Below, piece by piece: positions 3,401-39,145 of a stretch of 53,557 nt of DNA. The stretch is from assembly GCA_032718475.1 (NCBI GenBank), contig JAUCBJ010004582.1, forward strand, positions 1 to 53,557, written 5' to 3'. Below the pieces are notes generated by a model, which saw nothing but the letters and a program-made list of their open reading frames with translations, ran no database searches and was not told where the DNA came from. Source of the DNA: Nemertoderma westbladi. Taxonomy: Eukaryota > Animalia > Xenacoelomorpha. The number at the start of each line of letters is the position of its first letter. Position 1 is the first letter of the stretch. A program made the position numbers and the translations under genes.

Positions 3401-3861
3401 AGCCATCACCTAGCAACAAAAAATAACTCAAATATATTATAAAATCACACATTACACATTATTATATTGCGCTCTCCGTCGTCAGATACGCCTACAATTG
3501 TGCTAGTACTTAGTTTCGTCTATGTTTGTATGGTTTGAGTTTGTATGTAGTGTGTACTGTATGTATGAATGGAAATCTTACCGTAGGTAGGCACATCTGT
3601 GTGATGAACACTTACCCTCTCCTGTATGTATTCTATCTGTATGTATGTCTAGGCCTGGTTTTAACCACTAACTTTAATGTATATTAAACTTATACTGTAT
3701 AAATAGCATATTAGTCATTATTACATTATACATTTGTTCTAAACATTTGAGCCCGTCGACTTTGGCCTTTTTAATTATCAGTTACGGTGTATTTAGTATA
3801 CTAATAACTGCCTTCAGTCAGCTTGCTGACTGAAGTTTTAAGGCTAATAAATTGAATTGAA
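475..3861 (+). mobile_element. Non-LTR retrotransposon LINE-A (CR1/L2 group), decayed ORF2 plus 3' UTR
   Basis: APE endonuclease then RT remnants. The 3' end has a hairpin (CTTCAGTCAGC-TT-GCTGACTGAAG, 3812-3835), AATAAA and a TTGAA-repeat tail. Confidence 0.9.
573..3413 (+). pseudogene. LINE-A ORF2: 2A-like peptide, APE endonuclease and reverse transcriptase, with frameshifts and deletions
   Basis: Endonuclease motifs HINTRS, GISETWL, GDFNID, LIDLF and SDH in 573-1640. RT pieces NYRPIS, QFGFRKG and GIPQGTNLGPIFFLIYVND in 2250-2580, but the YADD/FADD segment is missing. C-terminal part is ORF 2835-3413. Confidence 0.9.
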
Positions 3862-4555
3862 ACTTATGCACAAATTGCCTAGGTTCAGGACATAAGGTGG
3901 ACAAGTGTAACAGCATATGGAGGTGTAAGGCCCAAAAGTGTGGTAAGAAGCACAGCACATTACTGCATTGGGCATTGATTCCAGTAGTCGGGCGTATAGT
4001 TGAGCAGAGGGCAGTGAGTCAGGCTGGAGTTGCTCCGCGTGAGAGAAACACTGAGTTGGGAGTAGTATCGGTACAGCCGGTGGGTGGATCAGAGAAGGTA
4101 GGGTGAGTCGAGCAGTATTGAGTTCGTGGCTGAGTGACGTGGCCCGAGAGGTAGTATTATTACGAGTTGTGGCAGTGCGGATGTATGGTGTAGACGGCCA
4201 AGTTGAGGATACATACGCAGTGTTGGACCCATGTAGTGAGTTGACTCTGGTAGAGCATGGGTTGGCAGAGCGATAAGGTTTATGTGGACCAACTGAGGAG
4301 CTGACGATTGGGTCGGTGGAACATGACGGGAGTGCTAGGCCCGCCATGTTGGTGTCATTCTCAGTTGGGGTGTGTAATGGGTCGAAGGGGTCTACCAGGT
4401 GGACAAGGCGTGGACTATCCCGAAAATTAATGTCATCCCTGAGGTTGAGCATGGCGAGTGTGAAGGAGAGGTATCCGTATTTAGTGGATCTGCCGTTGCC
4501 CGAGAAGATCGACTATTTGAAAGTGACAGTTCTGTTGGGAGCAAGGTTCCCAGCG
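3862..4555 (+). pseudogene. BEL/Pao gag (zinc knuckles) and protease-region fragment
   Basis: Plus-strand translation LCTNCLGSGHKVDKC...RCKAQKCGKKHSTLLH matches BEL Gag knuckles. ERYPYLVDLPLPEKIDYLKVTVLLG resembles the BEL post-protease segment. Stops and frameshifts are present. Confidence 0.75.
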
Positions 4556-5389
4556 GAATCCCAACACGCGGAACAACTACCTACCTCTTCATGTGGTGCA
4601 GTGGTCCTGTGTTCTCTACCAATCCCAACCCGTCTGGCCCTGTCATGGCCATGTAGACAGCTTGCATGTCCCGGAGGTTGGGGGTCTCCGGTCTGACGAT
4701 CCTCTCCGCACCGTCGCGGATCGCTGATCCCACCTTCACTGTTGTCTTCTCTCTTACTAGGTCTTGTACCGCCCTTGGCAACCGGTTTAACTTCGGCCCA
4801 CACTTCTTGCCTTACGTTCCTAAATCGAATAGGAATATGTCTCCATTTGGCGCAGCCAAATGCAGTAGTATGGTTCTGGCCGACCCCGCCGACCCTCTTC
4901 TCGAACCCTCTTCGTCCTCCAGAGTCCCCTCGTCGTCTAGGACCATGTATCCTCCCCTGTTTACGGACTCTACGAACCTCCTCCAGTCCTTTCTCGGTGG
5001 TTCTCTTGGATACTTCGGTATCCCGAACTTCGCTTCGTCTCCTTTCACTATGTAGTGGAAATGCTCGAGGATCGCGTTGTCCAGCGACGGTGTCCCATAG
5101 GTCCCGACCAGTCGCCTCTCGTGCAACTCCCTGAAGTGGTCCTGCAGGGCTTGTGCTTTGTGACCCTTCGCTAGCGGTTCGTAGTATCCCCTCGTCTTCT
5201 CCTCCGGATGCCTTTGCGTGAAGTCCACTAGTATCTCTTTTCTACTCCTCTCCATCTTTCTCTTCTTAACAAGTCTCTCCGCCATTACGAACTCCCACGC
5301 TCGCTCACCTGCTTGGTGGTGCCTTGCCAAGGCTCAAGTAGATGAGTGACATTTACTAAGATGGTCTGTGTTGGTTCAGTAATGGCCAT
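4556..5389 (-). pseudogene. Decayed ORF with a DnaQ-like (DEDDy, WRN/Mut-7/EXD-type) 3'-5' exonuclease domain; inferred accessory ORF of the minus-strand BEL element
   Basis: Joined frames give ExoI-like YMVLDDEG, then TILLHLAAPNGDIFLFDL, ExoII-like VKVGSAIRDGAERI and LRDMQAVY. Probable original ATG at 5389. Truncated at ~4556 before an ExoIII motif. Confidence 0.65.
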
Positions 5390-5809
5390 CTCTCTCAAAT
5401 CCTATGTTTGTAGTATATTTTTACCTATACGCCCCCCAAAGTGCCAATTTTCCTAAATCCCCTAAATTTGTCAGTTACTTTTATTATGTTCTAGAATTTT
5501 TCACTTACTGTAACCATAATTCGTTGGATTTTATTTGTAATACTATTTTAATTTTTTATTAATATGCTATTATCGCTTATAGTGGGTTATTTTTACTTAG
5601 ATAACCCCTATAGTTTGTATACAGGGTAGACTAGCTATTTCCTACTGTGCTAGTCTGTACCAGGTAGCCTCCTGGCCCTGTATCAAACATCCTAACTTAC
5701 TCTATGGCCCGTGCAGTACAGTAGTCTGTCTCGTGCGGCCTACACGGTCTATCCTGCTGTACCCATGTGCCCCCCTCTCACTTTCGTGGCGCTTTCTGTG
5801 CCCACAACC

Positions 5810-6335
5810 TCTACGGTACTACGTACCCTACTACACTACTCTTATGATATATTTATATCATACTCTTTACTCTCTTGCTACTAACTCTTACTAACTCTAC
5901 TAACTCTGCTTCTAACTCTATCGGTACTACGTACCCTGCCACTACTCTCGTGGTATGTTTATATACCGCACTCCCTATACTTCTAACTTCTACCAGCGGT
6001 ACTATGTACCGTGCCACTACTCTTCGTGGTATGTTTATATACCACACTCCCTGTACTTCTATCTGCCTACTAACGGTACTATGTACCCTACTACTCTCGT
6101 GGTACGTTAATGTACCACACTCCCTATACTTCTGCCTACGGTACTATGTACCCTACTACTCTCGTGGTACGCCTATGTACCACACTCCCTATACTTCTGC
6201 CTACGGTACTATGTACCCTACTACTCTCGTGGTACGTCAATGTACCACTCTCCCTATACTTCTGCCTACGGTACTATGTACCCTACTACTCTCGTGGTAT
6301 GCCAATGTACCACACTCCCTAACTTCTGCCTACTT
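5810..6335. repeat. Tandem array of a 65-bp unit, each containing a GTGGTAY-N6-RTACCAC hairpin
   Basis: CGGTACT recurs at 6074, 6139, 6204 and 6269 (exact 65-bp period). More degenerate units lie at ~5920-6070. Confidence 0.9.
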
Positions 6336-6483
6336 ACTTCTCACTACGTACTATCGTCGCTGGATATACTGCAGTACTGCAGTATGCAACTATAGCTCAG
6401 TAGTAGTTAGATAGGCCTACCCTAATCAACTGACCCATACATCAGACTTTAGACCTTAAGACTTTAAACCAGTTACTATACCG

Positions 6484-7348
6484 GTGCTACGCTTACCGAA
6501 CGCATACCCTATTATGTCTGTCGCATGGAAAGACGTCGGACCAACTCTGATGGAAACGTTAGAACAAATAAAAAAAGATACTGCCTTGATCCCGATAATC
6601 GTGCAACAATTAGTTGAAACACGCACCGAAAACCACCAGCTTAAACTTGGAAACGACTCCCTTATGCAATACATCCGACGCTACAATGTACTTATTCATG
6701 CGGTTCCGGAATCAATAACTGTAGAAGAAGAAAGAGGCAAAGTTCAGAAAGTTGTGGAACAACTAGGTATAACATTCGAAAGCGTAGATGTATTCCACAG
6801 CTTAGGACCGAAACCGAGTAGGCCTATATCAAACGATTCGGATGGGACTGCAGTAGGCCAGTCATCAGAATTAAAGGCCAAACTACGTCCAATTCTGATC
6901 AAATTCTTAGGTCATCGCCACCGCCTGTCCGCTTTAATGAACCAACGCAAAATTGAGCCCGCTTACGTGTCTGACCACCTAACACCACGACGTGCCACTA
7001 TCTTACGCCAACTAAGAGAGTATAAAAAGAAAAATCCAGGATCCTATACACGCAGCCTATTCCCGTAATGGCAAAGTCTATATGAAGAAGACAGAATCTT
7101 CTCGACCGCTGCACGTAGTCGACGAGAATACTGCCAATTCCATAGTTGGCGTCGCACCCAAACCAAGTATAGAGCAGTCTATCCTCGATCTTCTCCACCA
7201 ACCAGTTGATCCGAATACCTACCATCAAGTATCAGAAAGAAGAACCAGTCGTCGGAATGCGAACGTACGTTCCGGCTCGCAATCAATGGCGGATACTTCG
7301 AATAGTAACGGCGCTGTCAACAACCGATATAACTACTTATCATCCTAG
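6484..7348 (+). pseudogene. LINE-B ORF1 (coiled coil plus RRM-like domain), frameshifted near 7060
   Basis: RRYNVLIHAVPE, RPILIKF and YVSDHLTPRRATIL are typical CR1/L2-type ORF1 motifs. Confidence 0.8.
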
Positions 7349-7539
7349 TATGGGGTTTGGCTCGCCATACCCATGTTATCTGTATGAACCCACCCAGTTA
7401 CCCTCAAACCGGGTCACCCTGGTCAATGGTTCTGACCCGTTTTCTTAAAACCTGTAACGAGGAATTATTGGTGATGGTCATTCTGTTTATTAGCCCATTT
7501 CTTTCTTGAGATCGACCACTTAAAGCTTAGCTTAATTTT

Positions 7540-8070
7540 TCAAAATATTGATACATATAATAACTCTAGACGATTTTTTTTTCTTTTTGCAAGTATGTCG
7601 TTGAAATATGTTTTCTTTTTATCTTATATTTCAGACTTTTTTCAATGCCCGTCACTAGTTGGTATGTAATTGGCTGTCTCACTATATAGTCTCATAAACT
7701 TAAAATGGATATTCAATTCTATCTACTTCAACTGGATCCGCAGTTTTACAAAAAAAAATTTCGTTTTCTTTTTTGAAAGTATATATAATAATTCATTGAG
7801 ATACGTTATTTTGTTTATCTTATCCCTCAGTTTCTTTTTTCAAAATATGACATATATATTATTGGTATAGAAACTTAAAACTAGATACTCAAATCCATTC
7901 TAATTTAGATCCACAGTTTCCTTTCCTTTCGCAAGTATATAATTTATTCATTGAGTTATGTTTTTTGGTTATCCTATCCTTCATATGGAATCACCCATAT
8001 ATTTTCCAAAATATGATATATATTACTGGTATATGTAATTGGCACTTTCCAAAATATGATATATTATTTG
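7540..8070. repeat. Degenerate AT-rich tandem repeats in the LINE-B inter-ORF spacer
   Basis: Recurrent CAAAATATGAYATATAT..TGGTATA and CAAGTAT..ATTCATTGAG..TTATC blocks. Confidence 0.55.
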
Positions 8071-8192
8071 TTCTTTAGGTAAAAAAAATATTACTTATTC
8101 AATATTGGGTTTTTTAGTTTTTTACCCTTTCAAATATATATGGGTACAGTTTAAACTCTATCTATTATTATAGCTATAAATTTGTATATTAT

Positions 8193-8679
8193 ATGTCCCC
8201 TCCCGTTCCACCTTCTTGTTCATTCTGTTTCTCAGTAGTATCCCCGTCTGATTTATTGCTAAATTGCTCAATTTGTAAAAACACTTTCCACTTCCCGTGC
8301 GGGACCTGTCTTGATTTATCTGATCTCTCCATATCGAAATCTGACCTCTCCATCACAACCTATTGTATTCACTGCTACTCTGATTCATTTCCCTTTGCTA
8401 ACACACTTTCCTCTGATACTGATATATTCCCATCTAATGACGACAACAATAATGACAATACCGACTTCACAGATTCAAATAACCGTTTTCATTCGATTGA
8501 CCCAGACAGTAATTTACTTTCCACAATTAACAGCTCTGACTACTATAATTAAGACTCATTCAATACCCTAGTAGACCAACAGACCAGTAACAAGAAGCAA
8601 CTATCCGTGCACTGTTAACCAACTGCAGAAGTCTCCGGAAAAACTTTCAGGATACAACAACTCATTTAGATTTACTTAA
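8193..8679 (+). pseudogene. LINE-B ORF2 N-terminus: PHD-type zinc finger, IDPD motif and start of the endonuclease
   Basis: CSFC...CSIC...FHFPC...YCIHC fits the C4HC3 pattern. The endonuclease motif TNCRSL follows. Confidence 0.8.
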
Positions 8680-9742
8680 CTAGAAAGCCAGCAAGCTGGC
8701 TGGAAGGAGCCCGGGGGAAAAATCCTAGCCAAGACTATTACAAAGAACTATGTCAGTCAGCAGTAAGTAAACTAAAATTGTCTAAACTGCAAGGCGTGAG
8801 GCTAGCTGACTTTGTGGCTCGCCCCACATAATAAAAAATGCAACTTAGCTACCACTAACAAAAATATAATATGAAGCAAATAATTTCATTATCAAGAACG
8901 TTTACAAGATATAAGATGCGATTACCGAATATTTATAAAAAATGCCCATGATGCACAACCAGATAAATAACAACGAATAGAGCCAAATAACAAATTTAGT
9001 TTCCTTCTATAGGTATTACCCCGTCGTCAAGCGGAATATCTCTTCCCAGTGAATTCTATGTGAATATGTAATATAGGTACTCCTTAGGCGGTAGGCCAGA
9101 GCGGGCTCCTTAAATACATGCAACTACTGTATTATAGTGTAGGTCAACTATAAAACATTTTGCAATCCACAGTGAGTATCGACTGCAATAGGACACAACA
9201 CACTGCTTTGTGTAACTAAAATTCATTCTCCTGATCCACCCCCTAACATAGCAGAGTGAGTAACCTTATTGTAGATATACCCTTAGGAAGCACTGGGAGA
9301 GCAATCAGCTTATGGGGTAATACATTAGAAACCAACAGCTTATGTGTGAGTAAACATTGCCTTTCCTTATAGCCTACTAGTAAAACTTGGCAACCAACAC
9401 GTTTTTCTATGACTGTGTATAACATATTAAGCCATATTTCATCATGAACACCAGCTGTTATTTTACCATTGCTTTTAATTTCGCGACAAAACAATGTCAA
9501 AAAACTAAATATATCGAATACCACACATAGAATCGATCTGAAATTTTGTAACGCGATTATGAACCACCAAAGCAATGTACTTGCAAAATTTCATCAAAAT
9601 CGCCAGGCAGGAAGTGCCTTAACCTAGATAATTATCAGTCAGTATGTCAGTCAGTCAGTCAGTGTAATGTATCCTGAGATTTTTACAGAAAGTATCCCTG
9701 AGATTCTTACAGTAAGTATCCCGCTGTCAAGCGGGCTCCTAA
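8680..9742 (-). mobile_element. Helentron-associated non-autonomous element (HINE/DINE-1-like) no. 1
   Basis: Removing it restores the LINE codons LLN-KQFD at an AA/TT site. It has subterminal inverted repeats AGGAGCCCG (~8705) and CGGGCTCCT (9732-9740), terminal hairpins CCCGCT-GTCA-AGCGGG and GCCAGC-AA-GCTGGC, and a (CAGT)n microsatellite at ~9636-9664. Confidence 0.75.
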
Positions 9743-10112
9743 TAAACAGTTTGACATATTAACTTTTACAGAGACATTTCTTACTGACGAAACAGACCTC
9801 TCTTTAACTAAACTTGACGGATACAGTGGACCTCTCACAAATAATAGACTATACGGGAAATTGGACAGGGGCGGAACCGCAATCTATATCAAAGACGGAC
9901 TACAATATTCTATACAGACAAAATTTAATTTGGATGGATGTGAATCTTCTTGGGTACTACTGAAACCAGGCGGAGTAAACAACACTAACAGAAAACCATT
10001 ACTCATAGGAACAATTTACCGACCAGATACTTGCCCAGAAGTTAAATTCTTAGACGAATTAAACCGCAATCTTAACATTATTTCTGATCTTAAATACGAT
10101 ACAATTATTACA
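9743..10112 (+). pseudogene. LINE-B endonuclease, middle piece
   Basis: FDILTFTETFL, RGGTAIYIK and LLIGTIYRP. Confidence 0.85.
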
Positions 10113-11359
10113 CGTTCGTGGGGCCTTCGCGCAACACGAGGCCCAGTTATGAGATACAAATTAATATCGAGCGACTGTATCACAAAATCAGTATTTAACT
10201 TTATAAATTAGTAAAATTTAGAAATTTAACCACACCGCCAATCAATCAAAAAAAGAGGGACAGTACGTGTTCAGCCCTTTAAATCTGCACCCCCACCCCA
10301 CCCCACCCCACCCCACCCCACCCCACCCCACCCCCCCCCCCCCACCCTTCCCACCCACCAATACATAACCGCGACATCTACCACCCACGGAAGGTAGCAC
10401 GAACTTATTTCCAATCGCACGTTCAATATGCGAAGCCAGGTGGTTTATAGGAATATAATCTACGCAGTACTAAATACAGTCGATGCAGTAATGAATGATA
10501 TTCAAATAATTTATTTAATATACTGTTAATGCCTCTGAAAACTTAGACAATTAAAATACACAGAAATCCCATCAAAAAATAATAAGCATAATATTTTGAG
10601 AAATAAACAATTTTGGATATAAGCCTTCTGCAGTGGTAATCTTATTGACTGACAATCATTAAATGAGATCTGTCTATTACCTGAGACTAAAGAACACAGA
10701 CTCTATAGTGTAATAGGAGGTAGGGAATGCAGGTTTCAATCTCGTTAGGTCTAGCTGGCAGCCGTGTGGCTAGTTACATACAACCCCCCTCCACTGGCAT
10801 TCCCAGCAACTGGCTCCCTTACACACACATCCCCCATCTATGTACCAGCCAACTTGCAAGTTGGCCAATAAATGATCAGTATTTAATGAGAATCCATTTT
10901 TTATGCCGTTTTAATTACTTTAGATCAATTAAAGACACAATTATTAAAGCAAATCACTTGAACTAATTAAAAACTATAATAGAATGGCGTATGTGGATTA
11001 CATCTGTATAATTTTTAATTATAATTATTTAAATCTTATACTGTAAAACAATTAATTTCCTTTAAAAGGCAGGTTGAAAATTGTGTTTTCACCGTAATCA
11101 ACTTAATTAACTAATTAACTGCTATTATCTTAGCTTCTCGAAGGCCACACGGAAATTCTACTTGGAAAATTTCTAAACTTTTGCCAAACAACATGTGTAC
11201 CAAGTTTGGATAGATTTCATCAAAGATTGGCTGAGTTATTAACGTTTAAAATTGAACACGACAGAACGACAGAACGACAGAACGACAGAACGACAGAACG
11301 ACAGGTTGATTAATGGTACCACTACGCTAAGGCTCACTCACTTCGTGGCTCGCCCCACA
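10113..11359. mobile_element. Non-autonomous insertion, probably HINE-like no. 2
   Basis: Removing it restores TIIT-GDINI. It has short subterminal inverted repeats GTGGGGC/GCCCCAC, (CAGAACGA)n at ~11255-11303 and (CCCCA)n at ~10290-10350. Its end GTGGCTCGCCCCACA also occurs inside element no. 1 at ~8814. Confidence 0.65.
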
Positions 11360-12632
11360 GGTGATATAAACATCGTTACCTTAAAACATAACTTATCAAC
11401 GAAAAACTACAATAACATATTACACACATACGGGTTTCAACAGATAATTAAGCAGGCAACGAGAATCACTCTATATTCAAAATCACTGATCGACCACAAA
11501 TATTACACATATTACCGACAAGTTCGTTTCCGCCGGAGTTTTCCTGACTCAAATAGGTACCACGGATCACTTGGCCACCTTTATTTTAATTAATGATTTT
11601 GATTCCTACCTAACCTCATCTGAACCAAAACGTACTACATTCGATTACACAAAATTCAACCAAAAAAGTTTTTTATCGGATCTTCAAAACAAAAATAACT
11701 GGACTTATAACGAAGATTTAATAGCAAAAAGGAAGATAAATTTTCAATTTTTTATGAAAACTTCAACTCATTGTGCACTAAACACTTACCAAAAAAGGAA
11801 ATTAAAACAAAATTCATTCCCAAAAAGCCATGGATGACCACAAATCTAGTAAAATGTGTAATAAAAAAAAATAATTTATACGCTGCGTTAATGTCAAACC
11901 CATCTAACTTAAAATTATCGCAATACTCCTGCTATAGAAATAAATTAACAAAAACTCTTCGTGCTGCAGAAAAAAACTTTTATGAAAATGAATTTATTAA
12001 AAACAGAAATAGCTCGAAAAAAACGTGGAAAACCATAAACTCAGCTCTACATCGATCAAAAATTTATCTAGCCCAATCAAAATCAAAACAGACCCATCCG
12101 GTACAACCACGAGTGATAGTGCATTAATTGCCGATATTTTTAATTCTCATTTTTCATCTATAGGACTTCAACTTGCCGACAAAATTCCAAAATCTAATAG
12201 ACAACCAACTCGCCTCATTAAAAATAGTAAATATAATTCCTTTTCTCTTTTAGAACCATGTGAAATAGAAATTGTTTATTTTTTACTTGACATAGACAAT
12301 AATGTATCTACTTATGATGAATTTCCCGTTTCACTGGTTAAATTAGCAGCACACATAATAGCTCCACACCTCACATATTTAATTAAATTATCTATTTTAA
12401 ATGGATTTTATCCGCAAATTCTAAAAAAGGCTAAAATAATACCTATTTATAAGTCAGGTGATCCGACAGACAAAAAAAATTACCGTCCAATTTCAATTTT
12501 ACCAATCTTCAGTAAAATCTATGAAAGACTAATTAATACTCAATTAATGGCATACTTAAATAAATATTCCCTACTTTCTTCAGCTCAACACGGATTCCGT
12601 AAACAAATTACCACTACTGACGCCATACTAAC
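11360..12632 (+). pseudogene. LINE-B endonuclease C-terminus and RT N-terminus
   Basis: GDINI, TRIT..SKSLIDH, KPWMT, AKIIPIYKSGD, NYRPISILP and QHGFRK, with several frameshifts. Confidence 0.9.
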
Positions 12633-13794
12633 TGTAAAGGCTTTTGCGGAATTAGCCGGTTATTTTCCCCGTAAAGTACTCTGTAGTTGGTTTAACAGGC
12701 ATAAAAGGCCGTGTCCTTACTGTACTGGTGTTTTAGAGGACATAAAAGCCATTTCTTCTGTATGTGTACTTTAGCGGACATAATTAGCAATTCTATGACG
12801 CAATACGCCAGATCCTCTTGAAACAGTGTAGCTACCATGACGACGGCTAACAGCTGATGCTGTACACGTGGAGCTTTTTCTTTGTTCTCTGTTCCTTCTT
12901 TGTTCGGTCGACCAATCAGAGCGTTTTTTGCCTCTGCGTTAGAGATTGTATATAGAAACTCGTGGAGTTGAGTCAGTATGTGATTTTGTCCACAGCCTAC
13001 AACACCGGCTTTGGAACCTCCGTGTTTCAGTCTTTATCCCAACATTAGTAGGCTTAATTATAGAACGTATATCTGTTATCATACCAAATCATAACGAAAC
13101 TGCATTCATAACCATTCACACCTTAAACTTTGTACTGCTATTTACTGTCGGTTATTCATTATATTTGTTGATGGAATATTATATTTGGAATACTGATAAA
13201 TAACCAGACACCCCAATCTTCTTGATATACTAAAGGTTAGAGAGACCGGTTACATATAACGATTGCGACTTACATTAAGTGGTTTGAAGTGAATCTAATG
13301 CTATTTTATAGGCCCTACATGTATTGTCTGTTGTTCTCTTTATATGTGACTAAAATTAGTGAAGGTCGGCAGATCAGTGTGCAGCATTGTGCAGTATTGT
13401 GTATGATTGTGACTGATAACAAAGCATCTCCTAAAGAATGCGCCATATACGTGAATCTATAGCCATCCTGTTGTGTCTAGTTTAAGTCATAACTCTGTTT
13501 ACATATTTAGAGCGCCACGTCCTAAAGGAACTGTTAATATTTCCCGAAAGTGAATAATATTTGTCAGAGATTATATATTACGATCAGTCGAATAATACAG
13601 TAGGCCTACCCCGCAATACGGTTAGGCTTCCGAATCCAGTCTCCCGGGTATATCCAGCGGGTGAATGATCGCGCATAGACTGGCTTCGGCTAATGTAGTG
13701 TATCAAATACTTGTCATAGGCTAAAGACGATCTATCATCTAAAAGACATCCCAATTTGGCAGGTTAAACTGCTAAAGGTCTGAAAGCTCGAACA
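12633..13794 (+). repeat. 5' LTR (1162 bp)
   Basis: TGTAAAGG...GAACA, a direct repeat of 24030-25191 with about 5 mismatches found by eye. Confidence 0.95.
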
Positions 13795-14116
13795 ATAACA
13801 GATATATACGTACAATCAGAAGATATAGTTGTATATTGTTCTGGTAAGAACAATAACAGATATAGCTTCTGTATTGCGGTAGGCAATAAAGCTGAAGTAC
13901 CGGTCAACCGGTACCTAGTAGGCCTGACTACCTAACCACCCGGACCGGTACCTACAGCAGTATTATTCGATTTTGATAATTATATACCGGTAGGCCTTAA
14001 TAATTAATCAGGGACTGCAGCCCTGGTTTTTTATTGAGATTTTACTTATTTCTGTCAGTTTTATTTACTTGTAGGTTAATATTGAGCAGAAGATGTGTAA
14101 GCCTGCCCAGATTGTA

Positions 14117-14685
14117 CAGATAATTTGTAGGCTGGACAGTTGTCTGACTGTTGTTAAGTCTGAGGGGACTGTAGTGTGTGTAGAGTGTATGTCCGATAAA
14201 TTGATAGTTAGGAAAGTAGGGGCTGCCAGTGCTGTGAGGTGAACCCCCTCGAAAGAATAAGTCGTACTACTCGGTTAGAACGCATACTAACTAACCATTT
14301 CGGAGTCTGCATATACTGTAGTTTATTTAGGCTTGATAGTAGTCTGCCAGCGTTTGGTCTGTACTTTGTTTGTGTAGTTTGTACGGGTAGCGTAACAGTT
14401 CTTATTTAGATAATTTGTAGGCTGGATTTTGTCTGGCTGTTGTTAGGTCTTGAGAGATTTCGGTGTGTGTAGAGTGTATGTCCGATAAAGTGCCAGTTGG
14501 GAACGTAGGGGCTTCCAGAGCTGTGAGGTAAACCCCCTCGAAAGAATAAGTTGTACTACTGGGTTAGAACGCATACTAACTAACCATTTCGGAGTCTGCA
14601 TATACCGTAGTTTGTTTGGGCTTGATAGTAGTCTGTCAGTATTTGGTCTGCATTTTGTTTGAGTAGTCTGTACGCGTAGCGTAAT
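14117..14685. repeat. Tandem duplication (~290 bp x2) in the BEL leader
   Basis: AGATAATTTGTAGGCTGGA...GTAGCGTAA occurs at ~14117-14395 and ~14408-14685. Confidence 0.85.
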
Positions 14686-15634
14686 ATTTATTATTCAGAG
14701 TTTATGCGATTATTCGCAACATTCATATCCCCAAGTTTATTCCTACAGTAATTGTGCTTGTTATATATACCGTTATAGTTAAACTAACCCCGGTACTACA
14801 TCAGGGCTGCTTGGCGTAGGTAAAGACTGGTGATTTTGTGCCCCGGTCACTCCAGCAGATACCGTGGTTCTTTTAGCTGTTCAAGTATTTTAACTACCGA
14901 TTATTTGTTGTATAAGTACTTGTACCTAATTTAGGGTTTAGTGTACAGTGCTTTCCGAAGGCAATTAGTGTGTAGGCAGTATATTTGTGTTGTAAAGTGG
15001 TTAATAGGCACGTTGGTTCTGGTAGACCGCGGTAATTAACTTCTAGGTAGGAACACTCCGTGATACATAACGTAGTACTTATAGCGCCACGGCTATAAGT
15101 CGTCAGACGGTGGTATTTTTCTATCTGGACAACGCAGTATATTTACTACTACTTATTATTTTCAAATACCGTAGTAACCTGTCCGTTGTAATAACCAGAT
15201 ATTCTAACCCTTTGTTAGGCTGGTTAGTAGACTTCTTGTAAAATTACCCTAAAAATTCGTACTTGTAATTTTTGTGTTTATTTACAGATTGTAATCTCAC
15301 CCAGAATTGTACGTAATTTGTAGTATTAAGTAACTTAGGTAAATTAGAATTATTTGTTTTAGTGTCGAACAAGTAACACTTCACTGAGAGCGCACAGCTT
15401 CTGTGTAGTGACTCCCCCCAGAAATTATAACATTTATTTCAAATATTGACAAAACCCATTAAAAACGGGTATATATATTATAAATCAACTCAAACGATTT
15501 ATAAATAGTAGGCCTGCCATACATCAATTAGGTCTAAATATCAGTTGGACTACTGCTTAAATAACGGTAATAAAGTAAGTTAAAGTAACCAAGTAACCCT
15601 TAAAATTCAGAAATTCAATTATTCTAAAATAATT

Positions 15635-16020
15635 GACATACCGGTATTTACAATAGGCTTATTACATTTATTTCTATAAATTTTAGGCTGAAATTATACC
15701 GGTATTCTGTAATTAATTCTAGTCTGTAATTATACTTATATATATACATTATAAGTGTAAGCTGTATACCGGTATTCACGATAGGCCTATTATATATTTA
15801 TAAATTTAGGCTGAAATTATACCGGTATTCTGTAATTAATTCTAGTTAATAATTATACTTATATATACTATAAGTGTAAACTGCATACCGGTATCCACGA
15901 TAGGCCTATTATATATTTATATATATTTGTGCTGGAATTATATACCGGTATTCTGTGACAAATCTAGTCTGTGACAATACTTATATATATACTATAAGCA
16001 TACCGGTATTCTAATATATT
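15635..16020. repeat. AT-rich ~122-bp tandem repeat carrying ATACCGGTAT palindromes
   Basis: TAGGCTGAAATTATACCGGTATTCTGTAATTAATTCTAG is repeated, with about 7 TACCGGTA palindromes in the interval. Confidence 0.8.
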
Positions 16021-16145
16021 ATATATATATTACGCTACACTGAGTAGCAGTATCGGTAATTAATTACTAGGCTAACGGTGATACTGAATTACTAGACTTG
16101 CTTAAACTGTAATATAGCAGTAGGCATTCAACTGTACAAACCAAC

Positions 16146-19100
16146 ATGTCTGACACAAAGCAAAACCTGTCAGACAGTCTCCTAGATACAACCATATGTG
16201 ACCCAGACAGGAGTGTGGAATGTGTGGGACCGAAGTTCACCTCACATCCTACTGTAAGAAAGATTATCCCTCCAGTAGTAATATCAGACCCTAGGCTAGT
16301 CCAACATCGTAGGTCTATCATAGGCACTCGAGCTCAGGTCAAGCGGGACCTTGAAGCAGCAGAACAGCAACTACCCGCGAGCCGAGAACTTATTTCTCAG
16401 CGGCCCGACAGCTCCAGTAGTGCGGATACTGTAGAGCTGACACCCGAGCACGGAGCAAAGATGACAGATGCGGTTTATTCGGACCCCCTTCTCATCCTTC
16501 CTGCAGCCGTACTCACTAGGTTATTGATTGCGGTGGAAGAACACCAGATCGATTGGGCGAGAAATAAGCGATCGACTAAAGATAGTTATGCGGGATACAC
16601 AAGGGAAGAACTGAAGTCTATTGTCGAGTCGCAATGAAACTTCCCCGGACCCGGACTCCCGTTTGATTTATCAGTAGCTGCCTGGGAAGACATACACAGG
16701 ATGGGAGTAACCAAGGAAACCATCGATCCAGCTGTGTGGAAGAGGTCCGCAGCAGGATACGTACAGGGATTCTTCAGCTCCATGGAGCGATTAGAAGAAC
16801 AACTGTTTCAACAACCCCAAGGACCTCAAGAGCAGGGACAGCTGCTTTATCAAGTTAGAGAAAGAATTCTACGAATCAGGCTAATCTTATCGGCCTTTGA
16901 GGAGGCTTCTAAAAGAAGGCAGGACACGTCGTTGCAAGTTGCCGTAAAGACTTGGTTTCAACGGGTGAGTCTCCAGGTTCAAGGAACGGCTCAGTGGAAA
17001 GTTCAACTGGATGAGCGCTCAACCCATGGAGAATCAACAGACGCTACATTTTCCCAAGTGGAAAGTGAAGCGACAGCAGAGAAACCGCATAAGAGGGATG
17101 CTATTGACATCTATCTGTCGGACTATCAACGTTTTGTAGGAGATGAAGAGTTGAGGAGAAGACTAGAGGGACTTAGCCCTAATAGTGAAGGAGCCAAGCT
17201 TGTGTTGGACGCAATCGATGTGGATAGGTTAGCTGCGAACCAAGCTAAATTCAATGAAAGCATCTGCATCGCTAAGGTTCAAGAAGAACAAGTAAAGAAA
17301 AAACGTATAGAAGATAGAAAGACAGCGGCAGTGGCAGCAGCAGTGGCAGCGGCAGAAGCGGAAAGAAAAGCGGCAGCAGCAGTGGCAGCGGCAGAAGCGG
17401 AAAGAAAAGCGGCAGTGGCAGTGGCAGCGGCCGAAGCGGAAAGAAAAGCGGCAGTGGCAGCCGCAGAGGCAGTGGCAGAAGCAGAATGGAGGGCATCTGA
17501 AGAGACAACCCAACTAGAGTTGGAAAATCTTCAAGAGAGGCAAGACAACTTCAATAAACAGTTAACAGCTAGTAATATGCAGATGATGAGTCGATCTACT
17601 CCCAAAAGGCAGGGATATACATCATCTGAGGAAGGCGATACAACTGATGCTGAAGGCGGAGGAAATAGATCTCGTCTAAGCAGACGTAGAAGAATATCCC
17701 ACCGTCAGAAATTGCCTGATTTGCCCCCAGCTGTTAGAAGGCAACTAACTGACACAAACTTAGGTAGTACAGAACCCACAGACCAAATAATTAATATAGA
17801 AAGACTCCCTACTATAGTAGATGAGCCTGAAATAATTAGGCCTGTTCTCGAAGCCACCCCTTCGGTGATAGAGACACCTGTACTCCCTGAACCTACCTCT
17901 AAATTCCCTCTGCACAGCACGAAGCTACCTGTGCCCCACAGAACCACTCCTGAAATTGTTCATGTCCTGGACTCCGAGCGAAATATTCATGACTTGTCGC
18001 CCGTTGTCCCTCGTCCGCCCGCTACAACGTTGGCGCCTCCCGCTTCGGCGGTCGAGTGGGTAGATGAGGGACGACGGGAGATGGGTCTCCTGCTCGGGCA
18101 ACTGAGGGAACACGGAACGGTGTTCCTCTCAGCAAGTCCAGGAGATGGAGGGGACTGTGCAGCAGTTAAAGGGAACAGTTAGAGAGAGTAGGTTAGAGTT
18201 GCAAGAAGTGCAGCAAAGTATCGCGTTAGAACGCAATAAATTAGTAAATACACAAAAGGGTATACCACCACCCCCTGTAACAATGTGTTAACCTGTTAGG
18301 TCTGAAGTATTTCATGCGCAAGGTGTGGAGCCTACACGCATCTATACTGCTAGCGAAGTGGAAACTCCTATAGTAAACCCTATTAAGGGTAATTATAAAC
18401 CTGTTGACAATGATATTCCATATAGACTTGATAATAATCCGAGAAATTTATATACCGATAACTCGATATTAAATAACACGATGGCCCAAGAAAGTTTTAC
18501 GCGTCAAATGGCTAGAACCGAAGCCTGTCAAGCGGTAAAGGTGGGAGAGATCGTCAAGTTCAATGGAGATGAGATGAAATGGTTACCTTTTAATGAATAT
18601 TACAAAGATAACGTACAGAACTCTGTGCTATCTAACGGAGAGAAACTTAGATTCCTTATTGAGTGCTTGGAAGGATCTCCCAAGTTAATGGCGTTAAAGT
18701 TTATTGGACATCCAGATGGATTAAGACAAGTTTGGGATACACTGAACATCAGGTATGGTAATAGGACTAACATAGCTAGGTATTTATATGCGAAATTAAT
18801 GGCGCCCCGAAAGTTTCTTAGCAGCGGGATTATAGAGTTTTCCGACGAGATTCAGGAGATCTGTAGACAACTAGATTGGTTAGGTAAGTCTCATGAATAC
18901 CAGAATTCTATGGTTGTAGGAGCCTTAGCATCTAATTTGCCCAAGGGCGGAGTAGGTACACGCTGGGACAAGACAGTGTTATATATGATGGAACAACAAC
19001 GAAGAGATCCTACCATGGCTGATCTCATGTCATTCTTAGATGGAGAGGTAAAATTACAGCTCCTAAAGCAGTCCAGAGAGAAGACACCGGAAAACAAGGT

Positions 19101-20778
19101 AAGTGAGAAACCCGTTTCTAGGAGAAAGGTAATACCAGTGTGTTATACAGACGACGGCGAAAGCCAGGCTTCTCAAGAGGAAGACAGTGGGAAAGACACT
19201 GAAAGATCTTACTATGACAACAAAGCGCCTAAGGACGTAAGTAAATTCAAGTCTCGAACCAATGACAGGAGAGAACAGGTAAGAAAAACTCCTCCTACGT
19301 CTCCTAAGAGAATTCATGTAAGAAAGCCCAAAGAAAGAACGAGTGTGCACAACGTTACTCAAAGTAAGGTAAGTAACATCAAACCAAAATGTGTGCTGTG
19401 CGACGGGCCCCACCGTTTAAGTGCGTGTGATGAATTCCTGAGGAAATCACTAAAGGACAGACGTGAAGTCATGTGGGATAAGCGGTTGTGTTATAATTGC
19501 CTCAGACGAGGACACCAACGGCAAACCTGTTACTCCGACGCAAGGTGTGCAAAGTGCGGCGCAAAAAGTCACGTAAGTGAGTCCGAACTACATGTCCAAT
19601 TCAGTGATGTGAACGACACTGACCAAAGTTCTGAGATGGAAGGATTCTATACGGATGAATTCTCCGACGAAAATGAATCCTGTTACATGATAAATACCGC
19701 AGTGTATCGAGCACTTACGTATGAAAAAGACACAGACAGCGACCTCACCCTAACTACTTCTGACCGACAACCATCTTGGAAAGCGCCAACTTCCAATGTA
19801 GGAATCCAAGAATTTCCTGTAGTACAGTTAAGGGTCCACGGACCTAAAAGGAGTTATATAGTGAACGCCCTCCTTGACTCCGGTAGCACAGGAACATTCA
19901 TCGACAAAGAACTAGCCGAAGACATCTTTGCTGGACAACCCAAGTTCCGAACTAAGCTAAACATGTCAGGAATTATGCAGGTTTGGAAATCTACCGTAAT
20001 AGCGGATTATTATGTAGGCGCGTTGTCCACCCCCCAGGATGAAGTAGGAGAACACAGCATAAGGTCAGTAAAAATGGTCGCGATAAAGAACTTCGCTACC
20101 AGCCAAGTGGAACCTTATAACTGGGATGAGGACGATTTCACCCAGCAGCTTGAAATACCTAGATTCAACACCGATTACCCTGGAGTCCAAATACTCATCG
20201 GTCAAAATGCGCATGAAGCGCTCAAGACATTGGAGAAACGGCCTGCTCAACCGCAACCACTACAAGCTTATGCGGGAAGAACTAGAGTGGGTTGGTACTT
20301 TACTGGCCCTTCCCGTAGAACTCTCATGGAAAGATTACCGAAAGATCAGGTATATCAATTAAGTGAACGGGAAGTGGAGAGCAGTGAAGTTGACGACCCA
20401 ACTGAGGGAACACCATACTCCTCAGATAATGACGATATCAACTCCAATGTAGATCAATGGAGACATTGCCCCGAGACGATTAATCTAGCCGACATTGCCT
20501 CCAGAGGAGCAACTCCTCAAGAACGGACAGATACTCCAGACTGGTTAGGTGAACCCGACTTCCTAAGTAAAGAAGATGAATGGCCTCCCCACCTTAACCC
20601 GGCTGAGATTAGACAGGCCAAGGGAGCGGAGAAAGTAACACAACCACTCAATCGCCCAGCTGGTCGTTTATGTTTACTGGAAAGAGACCGAAAACTGTCC
20701 GGAAACTATGGAAGGCAAGATACTCTTCCCACGACCACCTCCCTAATCCAACAAATATCTAGGGACTCCATAACGTAA
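16146..20778 (+). pseudogene. BEL Gag-protease polyprotein with a long N-terminal extension, fused to an RNase H C-terminal remnant
   Basis: ORFs 16146 and 16701 share a frame across one TGA, followed by a frameshift near 18120 and a TAA at ~18289. Motifs: FNGDEMKWLPF (DUF1759-like), CVLCDGPH..C, CYNCLRRGH..C, CAKC...H, protease LLDSGS, then WRHCPETINLADIASRG. Confidence 0.88.
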
Positions 20779-21329
20779 CAACATACGGAGTGGGTGTGTG
20801 ACTATATTATTTTATATTTATTTTATTATTTTATATTGTGTATGTATTATTATGTAATTTTGTTATAATCGTTTTCTTTAATTTTATTTAGTGGAATGTT
20901 GTTTTAGCGATTATTTGGTGGATTGGTGCAATATGTATTCGCGTTTATTACTTAATTACTTATATATTATATATTTAGTGCGACGGCGAGAAATAATTCT
21001 TTTTCTCTTTCCTTACTGTCCGTATTACATTATAAATACGTGACTACAGTAAGATGAAATATCCGTACTTATTAAAGTACAATAAAGCTCCTACTATATT
21101 CAAGTATTATTGGTAAGCAGAGTATTAGGAATGCAAAGTTCAGATCCTCGTGTCTCGGCTAAACCAAGCTCTGGGTAGACCTTGGAAACGACTTGCCTCT
21201 TCACACTGACATTGCTTCGTGCGATATTGCTCTCATACCGTATATTAAATAATACATATAGTAGCGTGATGTCCCTTTAACAGTAGCGTAAAACGCAAAA
21301 TAAATCTGTTAAACCCTTTGACCATCTGC

Positions 21330-21605
21330 AATTCTAGTCGATTAAGATATCGCGGCACCCACCGATATACTTGAAAGACAAAACTCTAGAATCAGTGGTT
21401 AACGTCCCCAGACTTGTTCTGGAATAAACTGGTGCCCATCCTAAATATTAATTATTAATATTTATAAAATCTGTCAAATTTTAGATCCTTTAAAATTCTA
21501 GTCTATTAAGATATCGTAGCACTTACCGATATTCTTAAAAAGATCAATTCCTAGAATCAAGGATCCCAGTCCCCAGACATGTTCTGGAATAAAATTGTGT
21601 CTATT
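21330..21605. repeat. Diverged direct duplication (~110 bp, ~164-bp spacing)
   Basis: AATTCTAGTC.ATTAAGATATCG...CTAGAATCA...GTCCCCAGAC.TGTTCTGGAATAAA occurs at ~21330 and ~21494. Confidence 0.8.
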
Positions 21606-22423
21606 TAATATTAAATAATAAAATTTACGGGAATAAATTTAAATTCATCTTTTAATGAATTTGATAAATTGTTATTTTATACAATTTATAATATTCCCAA
21701 AATTCCATTAATTAATAGATCATGGGAGCGGAGATTCATCTATTAAGTGTATTAGTGTGCGAGAATCCCCAATATAGAGTCAATAGCCGATAAAATTCAT
21801 AAAATCATATATAAAGATGATATTGACCATTAAAGACTTACTATTAAATAGCATCCCAGATCTGTATGCATGGGAATTACCCTAATTCTACCGCTAGCTT
21901 TCCATAATGTCACCATAGCAACAACCACGCTAGAATTAGAAGCGAGTTAACAGAACAATAAAAAAGCTTGCTCATTGAATAGCATACGGAATAAATAGCA
22001 CACCGCTAGTATCCAAGGATACATAATAACAACGTGACATTCTGGAAGGCACTTGACTAACGGACAAATGACCCGAATGTGTGATAGAATGTGTACCATT
22101 TGTGACAGTTACGTGGAATTTGTGCGTTTATAGATGAATGTTACTACTAAGGTGTGTTTACAGTAGCGAGTCGCAATTGTGAAAGTAGCCCTAACTCTCC
22201 AGTAAGAACCTGAAGTATATCTAAGCCTTTGGGACGGATGGTGGAGTGACTCGTGCTGGTTGTTGTAGTCGTTGTGCAGCTACGACGTTGGCGATAGGCA
22301 CATCGGCGAAAGTACACCAGCGCTGAGGATCTCGCACTGTCCGGGGGCAGAGAGGGGTAGGCAGCGACGCCCGCTCGCCTAAATATAAACTCATTATAAT
22401 ATGGATAAACTTATATAGCAGAT

Positions 22424-23951
22424 ATGATTGAGTTGATAGAAGATGATCCTGGTATCAGGGAGCGATATACTCTACCTTTACAAGCGTTTGTTGATAACTT
22501 GATACGCGGCGACGCTGGTCCAACTACTACGGAGGATGATGGTCGTTATATCTAACCGCCAATGTCCCGGGAGCAACTTGCGCGTGGGTTGGACTGTAGA
22601 AAATTCACCGCTCGCTATACGCATCGTAATGGTACGTATATGGACTTCTTAACTACTGGTCATCCTATCGACCTACACGATACGAACGATATAGACACCA
22701 AAAGGGAAACGGTTTTATTTAAATATCATACCCAGCGGAAGCGGAACGATAAACTGAGACTCGAACACGAAAATTCTATTCGAAACCGACTCGAAAGTGC
22801 AGATGTTGAAGAGCCGGATAAACGCAGCGACTTCACCAAATACCTGGAATTCTTGAGAGAAACCTATCTCGATATTACCAGTCAACAGAATCTGGAAACT
22901 CGATATCCTCAAGGTATACATCATGATCCTCATGATAGAACTCAAACGACTCTATTTCACTATGATGTATCTTACCGCCGATCGACCGCTACCTGTTGTA
23001 CCGGATAGCTTCGAACAGATGGAGGAATATTGTAAGCTGGAGAAAGATCACTCGCGTTTCCCCTACAAGACGTGCGTCTTTGGTATTATTGCGATGAATG
23101 CCCTAGACCCAACCAACAAACGGAAAGACCTAAACATCCGCGGAGACGTTGCACTAAACACGGTTTTACTCGCTATACTGGCGGGAGTTTCGAGCGAAAT
23201 TTGTTTGACGTATCACCTACGCTCGTTCGACTCAGACGATCCTTAAATAAACCAATGATCAGAGTTTCGGAATACTCGATCAGACCTCCTCATTCCCTAG
23301 TGAGACCTCAGACTCTTGATCCTATTAGTATGACGGATCCTCCCGAGCTGTACTCACTGTTCAAAGATCTAGTGTTACCTGAACAATTAGTCGGTGGCAC
23401 CCCGGTTGTGGGCTTCCTAGATATTAGCCCATCCTACCTAGCCGGATTGGGATGCGGACATTTAATATCGCCGTTTAACCCTTACCATCGTCCCGGCTTA
23501 ACACGATATAACCTGTCACCAAAGTGGCGGAGAGCGTTGTACCAAATGAGTGGGGTAGATGCTATTCTACAAAGATCAGAAAAGGAACTTACGCTTGTTC
23601 AGATAAACGTAAATTGCACTAGCAAGTCCAAGCGGTAAACAAAGTAACTTTATCTCAGTTCGATCGGGAAATCCAGAATCTCTAAGAAGTTATCGAACTT
23701 GGACGACCCTATTCTCTGCGAGAGTTTTTGGATGAACGTATCCAGCTACGAGCGGAGGAAAATCAGCTCGAGGAGAAGCATATCGAAACGGCGGATACCC
23801 CGACCATAATCCTACACCTTCTGATGCAATCATATTGCACCCTTCACCCAGGATTTATAGCCCTCCTAGTAAAGTGGCTCCCCCCAAAGAGAAAAGGACT
23901 CTTGCTAGCCTCAAAAAACTGCGTAAACGCCGTCCTCGTAAGAAAGACTAA
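22424..23951 (+). pseudogene. Decayed ~500-codon accessory ORF of unknown function at the env position
   Basis: Overlapping ORF pieces chain from ATG 22424 (MIELIEDDP) to ...LKKLRKRRPRKKD* via single stops and frameshifts, ending just before the PPT and 3' LTR. Confidence 0.6.
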
Positions 23952-24029
23952 CTGTTTAGAGTATTTTTATATTTTAGAAACTGTGATTTGTTATATTTTA
24001 TAGACTTAAATCCCATTTTCTGGGAGCGG

Positions 24030-25191
24030 TGTAAAGGCTTTTGCGGAATTAGCCGGTTATTTTCCCCGTAAAGTACTCTGTAGTTGGTTTAACAGGCATA
24101 AAAGGCCGTGTCCTTACTGTACTGGTGTTTTAGAGGACATAAAAGCCATTTCTTCTGTATGTGTACTTTAGCGGACATAATTAGCAATTCTATGACGCAA
24201 TACGCCAGATCCTCTTGAAACAGTGTAGCTACCATGACGACGGCTAACAGCTGATGCTGTACACGTGGAGCTTTTTCTTTGTTCTCTGTTCCTTCTTTGT
24301 TCGGTCGACCAATCAGAGCGTTTTTTGCCTCTGCGTTAGAGATTGTATAATGAAACTCGTGGAGTTGAGTCAGTATGTGATTTTGTCCACAGCCTACAAC
24401 ACCGGCTTTGGAACCTCCGTGTTTCAGTCTTTAGCCCAACATTAGTAGGCTTAATTATAGAACGTATATCTGTTATCATACCAAATCATAACGAAACTGC
24501 ATTCATAACCATTCACACCTTAAACTTTGTACTGCTATTTACTGTCGGTTATTCATTATATTTGTTGATGGAATATTATATTTGGAATACTGATAAATAA
24601 CCAGACACCCCAATCTTCTTGATATACTAAAGGTTAGAGAGACCGGTTACATATAACGATTGCGACTTACATTAAGTGGTTTGAAGTGAATCTAATGCTA
24701 TTTTATAGGCCCTACATGTATTGTCTGTTGTTCTCTTTATATGTGACTAAAATTAGTGAAGGTCGGCAGATCAGTGTGCAGCATTGTGCAGTATTGTGTA
24801 TGATTGTGACTGATAACAAAGCATCTCCTAAAGAATGCGCCATATACGTGAATCTATAGCCATCCCGTTGTGTCTAGTTTAAGTCATAACTCTGTTTACA
24901 TATTTAGAGCGCCACGTCCTAAAGGAACTGTTAATATTTCCCGAAAGTGAATAATATTTGTCAGAGATTATATATTACGATCAGTCGAATAATACAGTAG
25001 GCCTACCCCGCAATACGGTTAGGCTTCCGAATCCAGTCTCCCGGGTATATCCAGCGGGTGAATGATCGCGCATAGACTGGCTTCGGCTAATGTAGTGTAT
25101 CAAATACTTGTCATAGGCTAAAGACGATCTATCATCTAAAAGACATCCCAATTTGGCAGGTTAAACTGCTAAAGGTCTGAAAGCGCGAACA
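24030..25191 (+). repeat. 3' LTR (1162 bp), preceded by the PPT-like GGGAGCGG
   Basis: Direct repeat of 12633-13794. Confidence 0.95.
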
Positions 25192-25196
25192 CTAAC

Positions 25197-36388: not shown

Positions 36389-36425
36389 GGCGACCCCCCT
36401 CGCTCTCTCACTCGCCAGTTCTCCC

Positions 36426-38689: not shown

Positions 38690-39145
38690 AAATCGGTACC
38701 ACATCGGACCAAATTGGCACCACATCTGACCCAATCTGTACCACATCGGTCCTAATGGGTACCACATCGGACCCAATCGGTACCACATCGGACCCCAATC
38801 GGTACCACATCGAACCAAATCGGCACCACATCGGACCAAATCGGTACCACATCGGTCATAATGGGTACCACATCGGACCCAATCGGTACCACATCGGACG
38901 CAATCGGTACCACATCGGACCCAATCGGTACCAGATCGGATCCAAAAGGTATCACACCAGACCCAAGTGGTGACATCGGACCCCATAGGGAACACACCGG
39001 TCTCAAAAAGGTTCCAAGCCAGACTCAAAAGGTACCATCACGAGCCCAAAAGGTACTACACTGGACTCAATCGGTACCACACACTGGTCTCAATATATTC
39101 CACACTAGACAAAAAAGGTACCAGTCCGAACCAAAGGTACTGGTC
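38690..39145. repeat. 21-bp minisatellite (TCGGTACCACATCGGACCCAA)n, degenerating rightwards
   Basis: Visible tandem array. Confidence 0.92.

What the first reader, a model, noticed from the sequence alone, without database searches (positions are those of the whole stretch)
4556..5389. BEL/Pao retrotransposon apparently carrying a DEDDy 3'-5' exonuclease accessory gene
Seen: minus-strand frames give VLDDEG...LLHLAAPNGDIFLFDL...VKVGSAIRD(G)AERI...LRDMQAVY, the motif order of WRN/Mut-7/EXD/RNase D-type exonucleases. The GGT at the ExoII acidic position is one base from GAT. Deleting LINE-B (6355-26902, candidate TSD TACTAT, CT-rich flanks on both sides) places this ORF about 1.1 kb downstream of, and co-oriented with, the integrase ORF ending at 27045, i.e. 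in the env/ORF3 slot. Known: DEDDy exonuclease ORF3s occur in bdelloid rotifer LTR elements, and Mut-7/Nibbler/EXD1 act in small-RNA pathways. Inference: a BEL lineage that captured an exonuclease, possibly for anti-silencing or nucleic-acid end processing. I do not know of this being described for BEL/Pao, but could not search.
Basis: partly seen in the sequence, partly recalled or inferred. Interest (0 to 1): 0.88.

Follow-up and report, generated by a model that had tools for sequence, protein, structure and literature searches.

The report
Likely exonuclease cargo in BEL/Pao retrotransposon
A broken gene in a high-copy animal repeat likely encodes a DNA/RNA-trimming enzyme and likely is the third gene of a BEL/Pao jumping gene that a later insertion split, which would extend a cargo described in Gypsy-type elements to this family.

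Summary
The motifs are real and lie in one minus-strand frame (5285-4604) with one in-frame stop. The frame is cut near 4604 by an unrelated BEL fragment, so ExoIII and any 3' LTR are missing.

No library search or fold hit it. A purpose-built WRN/EXD2-like profile matched weakly but specifically: 2 of 2000 shuffles reached it and it topped 2130 window tiles; glocal z was 4.3. Most other copies are acidic at ExoII, where this copy is not. Differences among copies are mostly synonymous, 12 of 17. DEDDy identity is about 80% likely.

The link to the BEL element is about 75% likely. It rests on a single nested LINE with a 6-bp duplication, co-orientation, shared codon bias and high contig depth on both sides. 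No contig was seen to bridge the two parts.

Exonuclease ORF3s are published for rotifer elements; I found none for BEL/Pao in 10 library searches. Verdict: probable new variant of a known kind; this copy is dead.

The parts
4604..5285 (-). Exonuclease-like ORF: about 110-residue N-terminal part of no known family, then ExoI (D-x-E) to just past ExoII of a WRN/EXD/RNase D-type DEDDy domain; one in-frame stop (4814-4812); ExoII acid absent in this copy; cut at about 4604 before ExoIII
5286..5389 (-). Possible 5' part of the same gene, starting at an ATG in another frame (inferred frameshift in this copy)
   Evidence: frames; depth stays high and loose ends lie at 5333
5390..6348 (-). Non-coding spacer with a 65-bp tandem array (5922-6333), high copy like the ORF
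6349..6354 (.). Left copy of the candidate target-site duplication TACTAT
6355..26902 (+). One CR1/L2-like LINE (ORF1, endonuclease, RT, (GATT)n tail), itself interrupted by several inserts and by a second BEL element at 12633-25191; not part of the element, but it splits it
   Evidence: LINE contigs end at 26892-26901
26903..26908 (.). Right copy of the candidate target-site duplication TACTAT
26909..27044 (-). Non-coding stretch after the pol stop, with a purine tract; not an LTR start
27045..29134 (-). BEL-A RNase H (Peptidase_A17), integrase and DUF5641
   Evidence: PF05380 E 2.7e-16, PF17921 5.5e-11, PF18701 2.2e-22
29135..31532 (.). Foldback insertion inside BEL-A pol
31533..36425 (-). 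BEL-A gag (DUF1759), protease and RT (YVDD), broken by stops and frameshifts
36426..36934 (-). BEL-A 5' LTR, 509 bp, TG...CA
3851..4603 (+). Gag-knuckle/protease fragment of a different BEL family that replaces the end of the ORF and anything downstream
   Evidence: frames; lower depth; no match to BEL-A

Best explanation
This broken open reading frame in a high-copy repeat is likely the third gene of a BEL/Pao retrotransposon and likely encodes a DEDDy-type 3'-5' exonuclease that would trim the ends of the element's own RNA or cDNA. Shown: the motifs, the stop, the cut at about 4604, the high contig depth, the excess of synonymous differences among copies, and a BEL element on the same strand beyond one nested LINE. 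Inferred: a roughly 10-kb element LTR-gag-pol-spacer-ORF3-LTR; a LINE landed in the spacer, then a second BEL landed in the LINE, and a rearrangement removed the end of ORF3 and the 3' LTR. In working copies ORF3 would be made from a spliced or internally started RNA, and the two-metal DEDDy site would remove 3' nucleotides. Selection on the gene along element lineages favours a benefit to the carrying element. Given that it is an exonuclease ORF3, I put end-trimming or editing of the element's own replication intermediates at about 45%, degrading or trimming host silencing RNAs at about 35%, and binding without catalysis at about 20%; none is tested.
For: Profile of 46 bacterial WRN/EXD2-like PF01612 proteins: 4.7 bits, 2 of 2000 shuffles reach it, and the ORF gives the top 3 of 2130 six-frame window tiles. 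Glocal ExoI-to-helix score 27.0, z 4.3, 0 of 2000 shuffles, inside the 19.5-46.9 range of 46 true DEDDy proteins left out of that profile. A merged profile aligns 99 columns in DEDDy register. At the ExoII codon nearly all summed contig depth in three runs differs from the window (1273 of 1493, 2451 of 2451, 1681 of 1681), and that reading is acidic (read by hand). 12 of 17 listed differences are synonymous in this frame, against 2 and 3 of 17 in the other minus frames and 23 of 37 in integrase. Codon use fits BEL-A pol (+0.243 bit per codon; negative for BEL-B, both LINEs and RhoA; 0 of 1618 other tiles reach it). Mean depth of ORF to integrase is 0.37-0.79 in three runs, both far above the LINE. 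6355-26902 reads as one LINE with a 6-bp duplication at its tail.
Against: No hit in Pfam, NCBIfam, PHROGs, PDB sequences, 5.8 billion proteins at near or longer lengths (16, 22) or 1.84 billion representatives. Four other profiles (short RNase D, RNase D, PolA, merged) gave nothing: 134-423 of 2000 shuffles scored as high. The second merged profile ranked the ORF 4th and 8th among tiles, with hhalign probability 5.6%. Models had pLDDT 33 and 40 and no fold hit. ExoIII cannot be seen. No listed contig bridges the integrase end and the array, and no loose end near 26903 was listed (323 loose ends not shown). No 3' LTR. The right flank is no more like the array than many other tiles. Summed contig depth is not a copy number. 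The codon bias may be only a purine-rich strand bias: the ORF scores above BEL-A's own held-out pieces (0.05-0.11) and a G-rich satellite comes close (0.228).
Confidence: 0.6

Rival explanations
1. The ORF is a DEDDy-like gene, but it belongs to another high-copy element (a Gypsy, Penelope-like or non-autonomous family) whose fragment happens to lie next to the LINE; BEL-A is an unrelated neighbour.
For: The window is a dense nest of elements. No bridge and no 3' LTR were seen. TACTAT recurs in the array. DEDDy ORFs are shared between Gypsy-like and Penelope-like elements in rotifers (PMC5408684, passages).
Against: The duplication abuts the LINE tail exactly. The LINE is continuous in gene order. 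BEL-A has no LTR after its integrase, so its 3' part must lie beyond the LINE or be lost. Strand, base composition and codon use match BEL-A and not the other elements.
Confidence: 0.2
2. The ORF is a real, selected ORF3 of BEL-A but not a DEDDy enzyme; the motif order is a chance likeness in a protein of unknown family.
For: No public profile or fold hit. The best score is only 4.7 bits, and six profiles were tried.
Against: Four motif blocks lie in the right order and spacing, z 4.3. An acidic residue sits at the predicted ExoII site in most other copies.
Confidence: 0.15
3. It is a decayed host-gene fragment or chance open frame inside a repeat, with no function for any element.
For: This copy has a stop, a missing catalytic acid and a cut end.
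Against: Depth in the thousands to 40,000. 7 of 8 minority variants are synonymous and all 8 fall at third positions. No host homolog was found.
Confidence: 0.05

Closest known systems
DEDDy-exonuclease ORF3 of Juno and Vesta LTR retrotransposons and Athena/Terminon elements of bdelloid rotifers (PMC5408684, passages read; PMC6431247 and PMC5718144, passages)
   Same: RNase D-like DEDDy ORF downstream of pol in the env slot; catalysis not demonstrated there either.
   Different: The carrier here is BEL/Pao (PF05380, PF03564, PF18701). That Juno and Vesta are Gypsy-type is recalled; the passages read do not place them in Bel/Pao. ExoI here reads D-D-E. I could not compare sequences with the rotifer ORFs, so common origin is untested. 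[quoted passage not shown]
Belpaoviridae / Semotivirus with an env-like third gene (ICTV profile PMC8742986, whole text; Tas and Cer7 in PMC554778, Atlas and Cer13 in PMC9094657, passages)
   Same: LTR, gag, PR-RT-RH-IN order; a third gene after integrase; LTR length within 0.2-1.2 kb.
   Different: The third gene is a small soluble enzyme-like ORF, not a fusion glycoprotein. The profile lists only gag, pol and env. I recall, without being able to check, that an RNase D-like domain may have been noted in nematode Cer elements (Malik et al. 2000; not held).
WRN/EXD2-like 3'-5' exonucleases of PF01612 (bacterial standalone '3'-5' exonuclease domain-containing protein 2' used as reference; WRN, Mut-7/Nibbler and EXD1 recalled)
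   Same: Order and spacing of D-x-E, the Q/H-L-A strand, the F-L-F strand, helix-K-V-G and the D-x-x-x helix.
   Different: Below every curated threshold; longer loops after ExoI and after the third strand; an N-terminal extension of unknown family; ExoIII not visible; no eukaryotic member was available for comparison.

Membership tests
DEDDy 3'-5' exonuclease (PF01612 group) | ExoI D-x-E at the end of the first strand | tested here: met
   VLDDEG aligns with profile GFDTE
DEDDy 3'-5' exonuclease (PF01612 group) | ExoII acidic residue | tested here: inconclusive
   Absent in this copy; acidic in nearly all other copies by summed contig depth in three runs (read by hand)
DEDDy 3'-5' exonuclease (PF01612 group) | ExoIII Y-x3-D | not testable with these tools
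   Copy is cut at about 4604; no whole natural copy was retrieved
DEDDy 3'-5' exonuclease (PF01612 group) | Score over the curated PF01612 cut-off | tested here: not met
   0 Pfam families at E up to 10; the query is a truncated, broken domain
DEDDy 3'-5' exonuclease (PF01612 group) | Profile similarity above shuffles | tested here: met
   2 of 2000 and 0 of 2000 with the WRN/EXD2-like profile; not met with four other profiles
DEDDy 3'-5' exonuclease (PF01612 group) | DnaQ/RNase H-like fold | tested here: inconclusive
   Single-sequence models, pLDDT 33 and 40; Foldseek 0 hits at E up to 0.001
DEDDy 3'-5' exonuclease (PF01612 group) | Metal-dependent 3'-5' exonuclease activity | not testable with these tools
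   bench assay needed
Belpaoviridae (BEL-A element) | BEL-type gag and pol domains in the order PR-RT-RH-IN | tested here: met
   PF03564, PF05380, PF17921, PF18701 over cut-off; YVDD in 31533-32153
Belpaoviridae (BEL-A element) | Two LTRs flanking the genes | tested here: inconclusive
   5' LTR of 509 bp with TG...CA; no second copy in the window; the 3' end is replaced by another BEL fragment
Belpaoviridae (BEL-A element) | tRNA-Arg/Gly primer-binding site | not tested
   No tRNA set to compare; a TGG lies 8 nt after the LTR; no self-complement to the LTR
ORF3 cargo of an LTR retrotransposon | Downstream of and co-oriented with pol in the same element | tested here: inconclusive
   Fits once the LINE is set aside; no bridging contig listed
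ORF3 cargo of an LTR retrotransposon | Carried by many copies and kept by selection | tested here: met
   Depth in the thousands in three runs; 12 of 17 listed differences synonymous (a subset of rows)

The most novel reading that the evidence does not exclude
A large, successful BEL/Pao lineage carries, in place of env, its own deeply diverged DEDDy exonuclease with no detectable relative among 1.84 billion representative proteins. It would be an independent capture, the first in Belpaoviridae, and would act as an editing or anti-silencing nuclease for a roughly 10-kb retroelement.
Probability: 0.4. Interest if true: 0.7.

Novelty: new variant of a known kind. Interest (0 to 1): 0.5.

Why it matters
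Belpaoviridae are described with gag, pol and at most an env-like gene. An exonuclease in the third slot would show that the DEDDy cargo described in rotifer elements recurs in a separate family of LTR elements, which points to a shared need in their life cycle. Because the family is high-copy and the gene shows selection among copies, it is a better system than the low-copy rotifer families for asking what such a nuclease does. The caveats are that the concept is already published for other elements and that this copy alone proves neither the fold nor the linkage.

Tried and rejected
No whole genome is held, so uninterrupted copies could not be sought directly.

Homolog searches were blank: viral contigs; plasmids 9 records, phages 5 records, all at E 2 or worse; the best lies on the opposite strand of an ABC-transporter-like frame. 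The 2 metagenome loci lie in a bacterial CTP-synthase-like frame (checked for L001; name recalled from the sequence). The integrase found nothing in prokaryote genomes or plasmids. A pairwise comparison with E. coli RNase D gave E 1.0.

Profiles of short RNase D (32 of 40 loci kept by a motif filter), RNase D (6 of 10), PolA (8 of 10) and their merge did not separate the ORF from shuffles. Both structure models were too poor to use. The wide structural search never ran because the queue was full, and the ESM Atlas comparison of this ORF was not obtained, so a language-model or wide fold test remains open.

No RNA holder was listed, which says nothing on expression. No contig with the same length and depth appeared in both read lays (most pieces not shown). 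A flank-similarity test across the LINE was negative.

Paper searches gave no BEL/Pao exonuclease. 'Exonuclease' occurs 0 times in the main text of PMC3118150, PMC2774666 and PMC554778 (term searches and passages only, supplements not read; they may hold element sequences that bear on this). PMC11662393, PMC6338049 and PMC3985635 passages were irrelevant or cited the rotifer work. Subscription papers and Repbase were not searchable.

Earlier scan notes by sequence and by place were empty.

Full report
1. What is in the sequence. An upstream ATG at 5389 is in another frame. Below about 4604 the window is no longer this gene. The plus strand of 3851-4603 reads as the zinc knuckle and protease of another BEL family. 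Public contigs of the same species run on differently at 4604-4606, and summed depth falls from thousands to 47-400 there. This copy is therefore broken by a stop, lacks the ExoII acid, probably has a frameshift near its start, and has lost ExoIII and everything downstream.

2. Is it a real gene of a repeat? Contigs from three DNA runs (two samples, two studies) give summed depth of about 560-40,000 across 4531-6345, against 84-720 in the LINE start beyond it; a fourth run covers little. Depth is not a copy number, but the step is large. Of the 40 differences the tool listed (506 more not shown), 17 fall in the ORF. Twelve are synonymous and 12 at third positions (P 0.002), against 2 and 3 synonymous in the other two minus frames. 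Among the 8 minority variants, 8 are third-position and 7 synonymous. Integrase gives 23 of 37 (37 of the 40 rows listed). The rows are the best-supported subset, not a full dN/dS, but they point to purifying selection on this frame.

3. Is it a DEDDy exonuclease? Public searches say nothing: Pfam, NCBIfam, PHROGs, PDB sequences, the word-indexed protein search at near and longer lengths (16, 22), and phmmer over 1.84 billion representatives (67) were all blank. Single-sequence models had pLDDT 33 and 40 and no Foldseek hit (24, 73, 92, 101).

I therefore built profiles from bacterial PF01612 proteins. Short RNase D, RNase D, PolA and their merge did not beat shuffles (134-423 of 2000). A WRN/EXD2-like set (16 genome loci plus 30 of 120 close homologs) scored 4.7 bits; 2 of 2000 shuffles reached that, and the ORF gave the top three of 2130 window tiles. 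A merge of all sets gave 1 of 2000 shuffles but ranked behind three LINE tiles, and hhalign laid 99 columns in DEDDy register at only 5.6% probability. A glocal score over the ExoI-to-helix slice gave z 4.3, 0 of 2000 shuffles, rank 1 of 2130, within the range of 46 true DEDDy proteins outside the profile; the merged profile gave z 3.6 and rank 8. Allowing for six profiles, P is about 0.005 for a hypothesis stated beforehand.

Independent of the score, the alignment puts the ExoII acid at a position that is not acidic here but is acidic in nearly all other copies by depth (read by hand). I put DEDDy identity at about 80%. It works like a DEDDy domain on this evidence, but I do not file it as a PF01612 member, because the cut-off is not met and ExoIII is unseen.

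4. Does it belong to the BEL element? BEL-A runs on the minus strand from a 509-bp LTR (36934-36426) through gag and pol to a stop at 27045. After the stop comes a purine tract and AT-rich sequence, not an LTR. 6355-26902 reads as one LINE: ORF1, an endonuclease split by inserts, an RT split by the BEL-B element, and a (GATT)n tail; its contigs stop at 26892-26901. TACTAT follows the tail exactly and stands at 6349-6354, though the word recurs in the 65-bp array.

The ORF's strand composition (A 0.30, C 0.21, G 0.34, T 0.15) matches BEL-A pol (0.31, 0.22, 0.29, 0.18). Its codon use scores +0.243 bit per codon under BEL-A pol, negative under four other references, and none of 1618 other tiles reaches it, although this could be a general purine bias. 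Mean depth of ORF to integrase is 0.37, 0.55 and 0.79. Against this, no listed contig bridges the two parts, flank similarity across the LINE is not above background, and no 3' LTR is present. I put the link at about 75%.

5. How it would work. Inferred: an element of about 10 kb, LTR-gag-pol-spacer-ORF3-LTR, with ORF3 made from a spliced or internal RNA as a protein with an unknown N-terminal part and a two-metal 3'-5' exonuclease domain. Selection along element lineages suggests a benefit to the carrier. I favour trimming or editing the element's own RNA or cDNA ends (about 45%) over attacking host silencing RNAs (35%) or binding without catalysis (20%). The rotifer paper raises the same options and states that activity is undemonstrated (PMC5408684, passages).

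6. What is known. DEDDy ORF3s are published for rotifer Juno and Vesta elements and Terminons (passages). The ICTV profile of Belpaoviridae lists gag, pol and env only (whole text). Ten full-text searches found no BEL/Pao exonuclease, but the library lacks most subscription papers, and I have an unverified recollection of an RNase D-like domain in nematode Cer elements (paper not held). Unchecked notes from this scan describe exonuclease cargo in Gypsy elements of other genomes and none with the words Pao and exonuclease; they lower the surprise of the general idea and are not evidence for this locus.

7. Verdict. New variant of a known kind; interest 0.5, rising to about 0.7 if whole copies confirm the fold and the linkage and no prior BEL report exists.

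Noticed in passing
window 12633-25191 (+): A young second BEL element inside the LINE RT: 1162-bp LTRs 99.5% alike, 5-bp duplication CTAAC, gag-protease present; after the protease pol is reduced to a short remnant. It looks non-autonomous.
   Followed up: partly
window 13795-13806: The 12 bases right after BEL-B's 5' LTR are the exact complement of LTR position 436-447 and there is no TGG start, a self-priming-like signature; BEL-A shows none. Tested after seeing unchecked earlier notes on other genomes.
   Followed up: partly
window 22556-23638 (+): BEL-B has its own extra frames (150 and 200 residues) in the third-gene slot. No Pfam or PHROGs hit better than E 0.016, no NCBIfam hit, no Atlas hit for the first, and no similarity to the exonuclease-like ORF.
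   Followed up: partly
window 26967-27028: The non-coding stretch after the BEL-A pol stop has far higher summed contig depth (up to 226,000-361,000) than the integrase beside it; possibly a conserved cis signal shared across subfamilies.
   Followed up: no
window 45655-46233 and 49213-49791 (+): Two intronless Rho-family GTPase copies, 4 bases apart in sequence, both with open frames.
   Followed up: no
window 29135-31532: Foldback insertion with arms of about 750 bp inside BEL-A pol; TGTAGA stands at both ends.
   Followed up: no
window 36949-38227: An 18-bp satellite of about 71 copies abuts the BEL-A 5' LTR; 21-bp arrays follow at 38691-38966 and 39902-40550.
   Followed up: no
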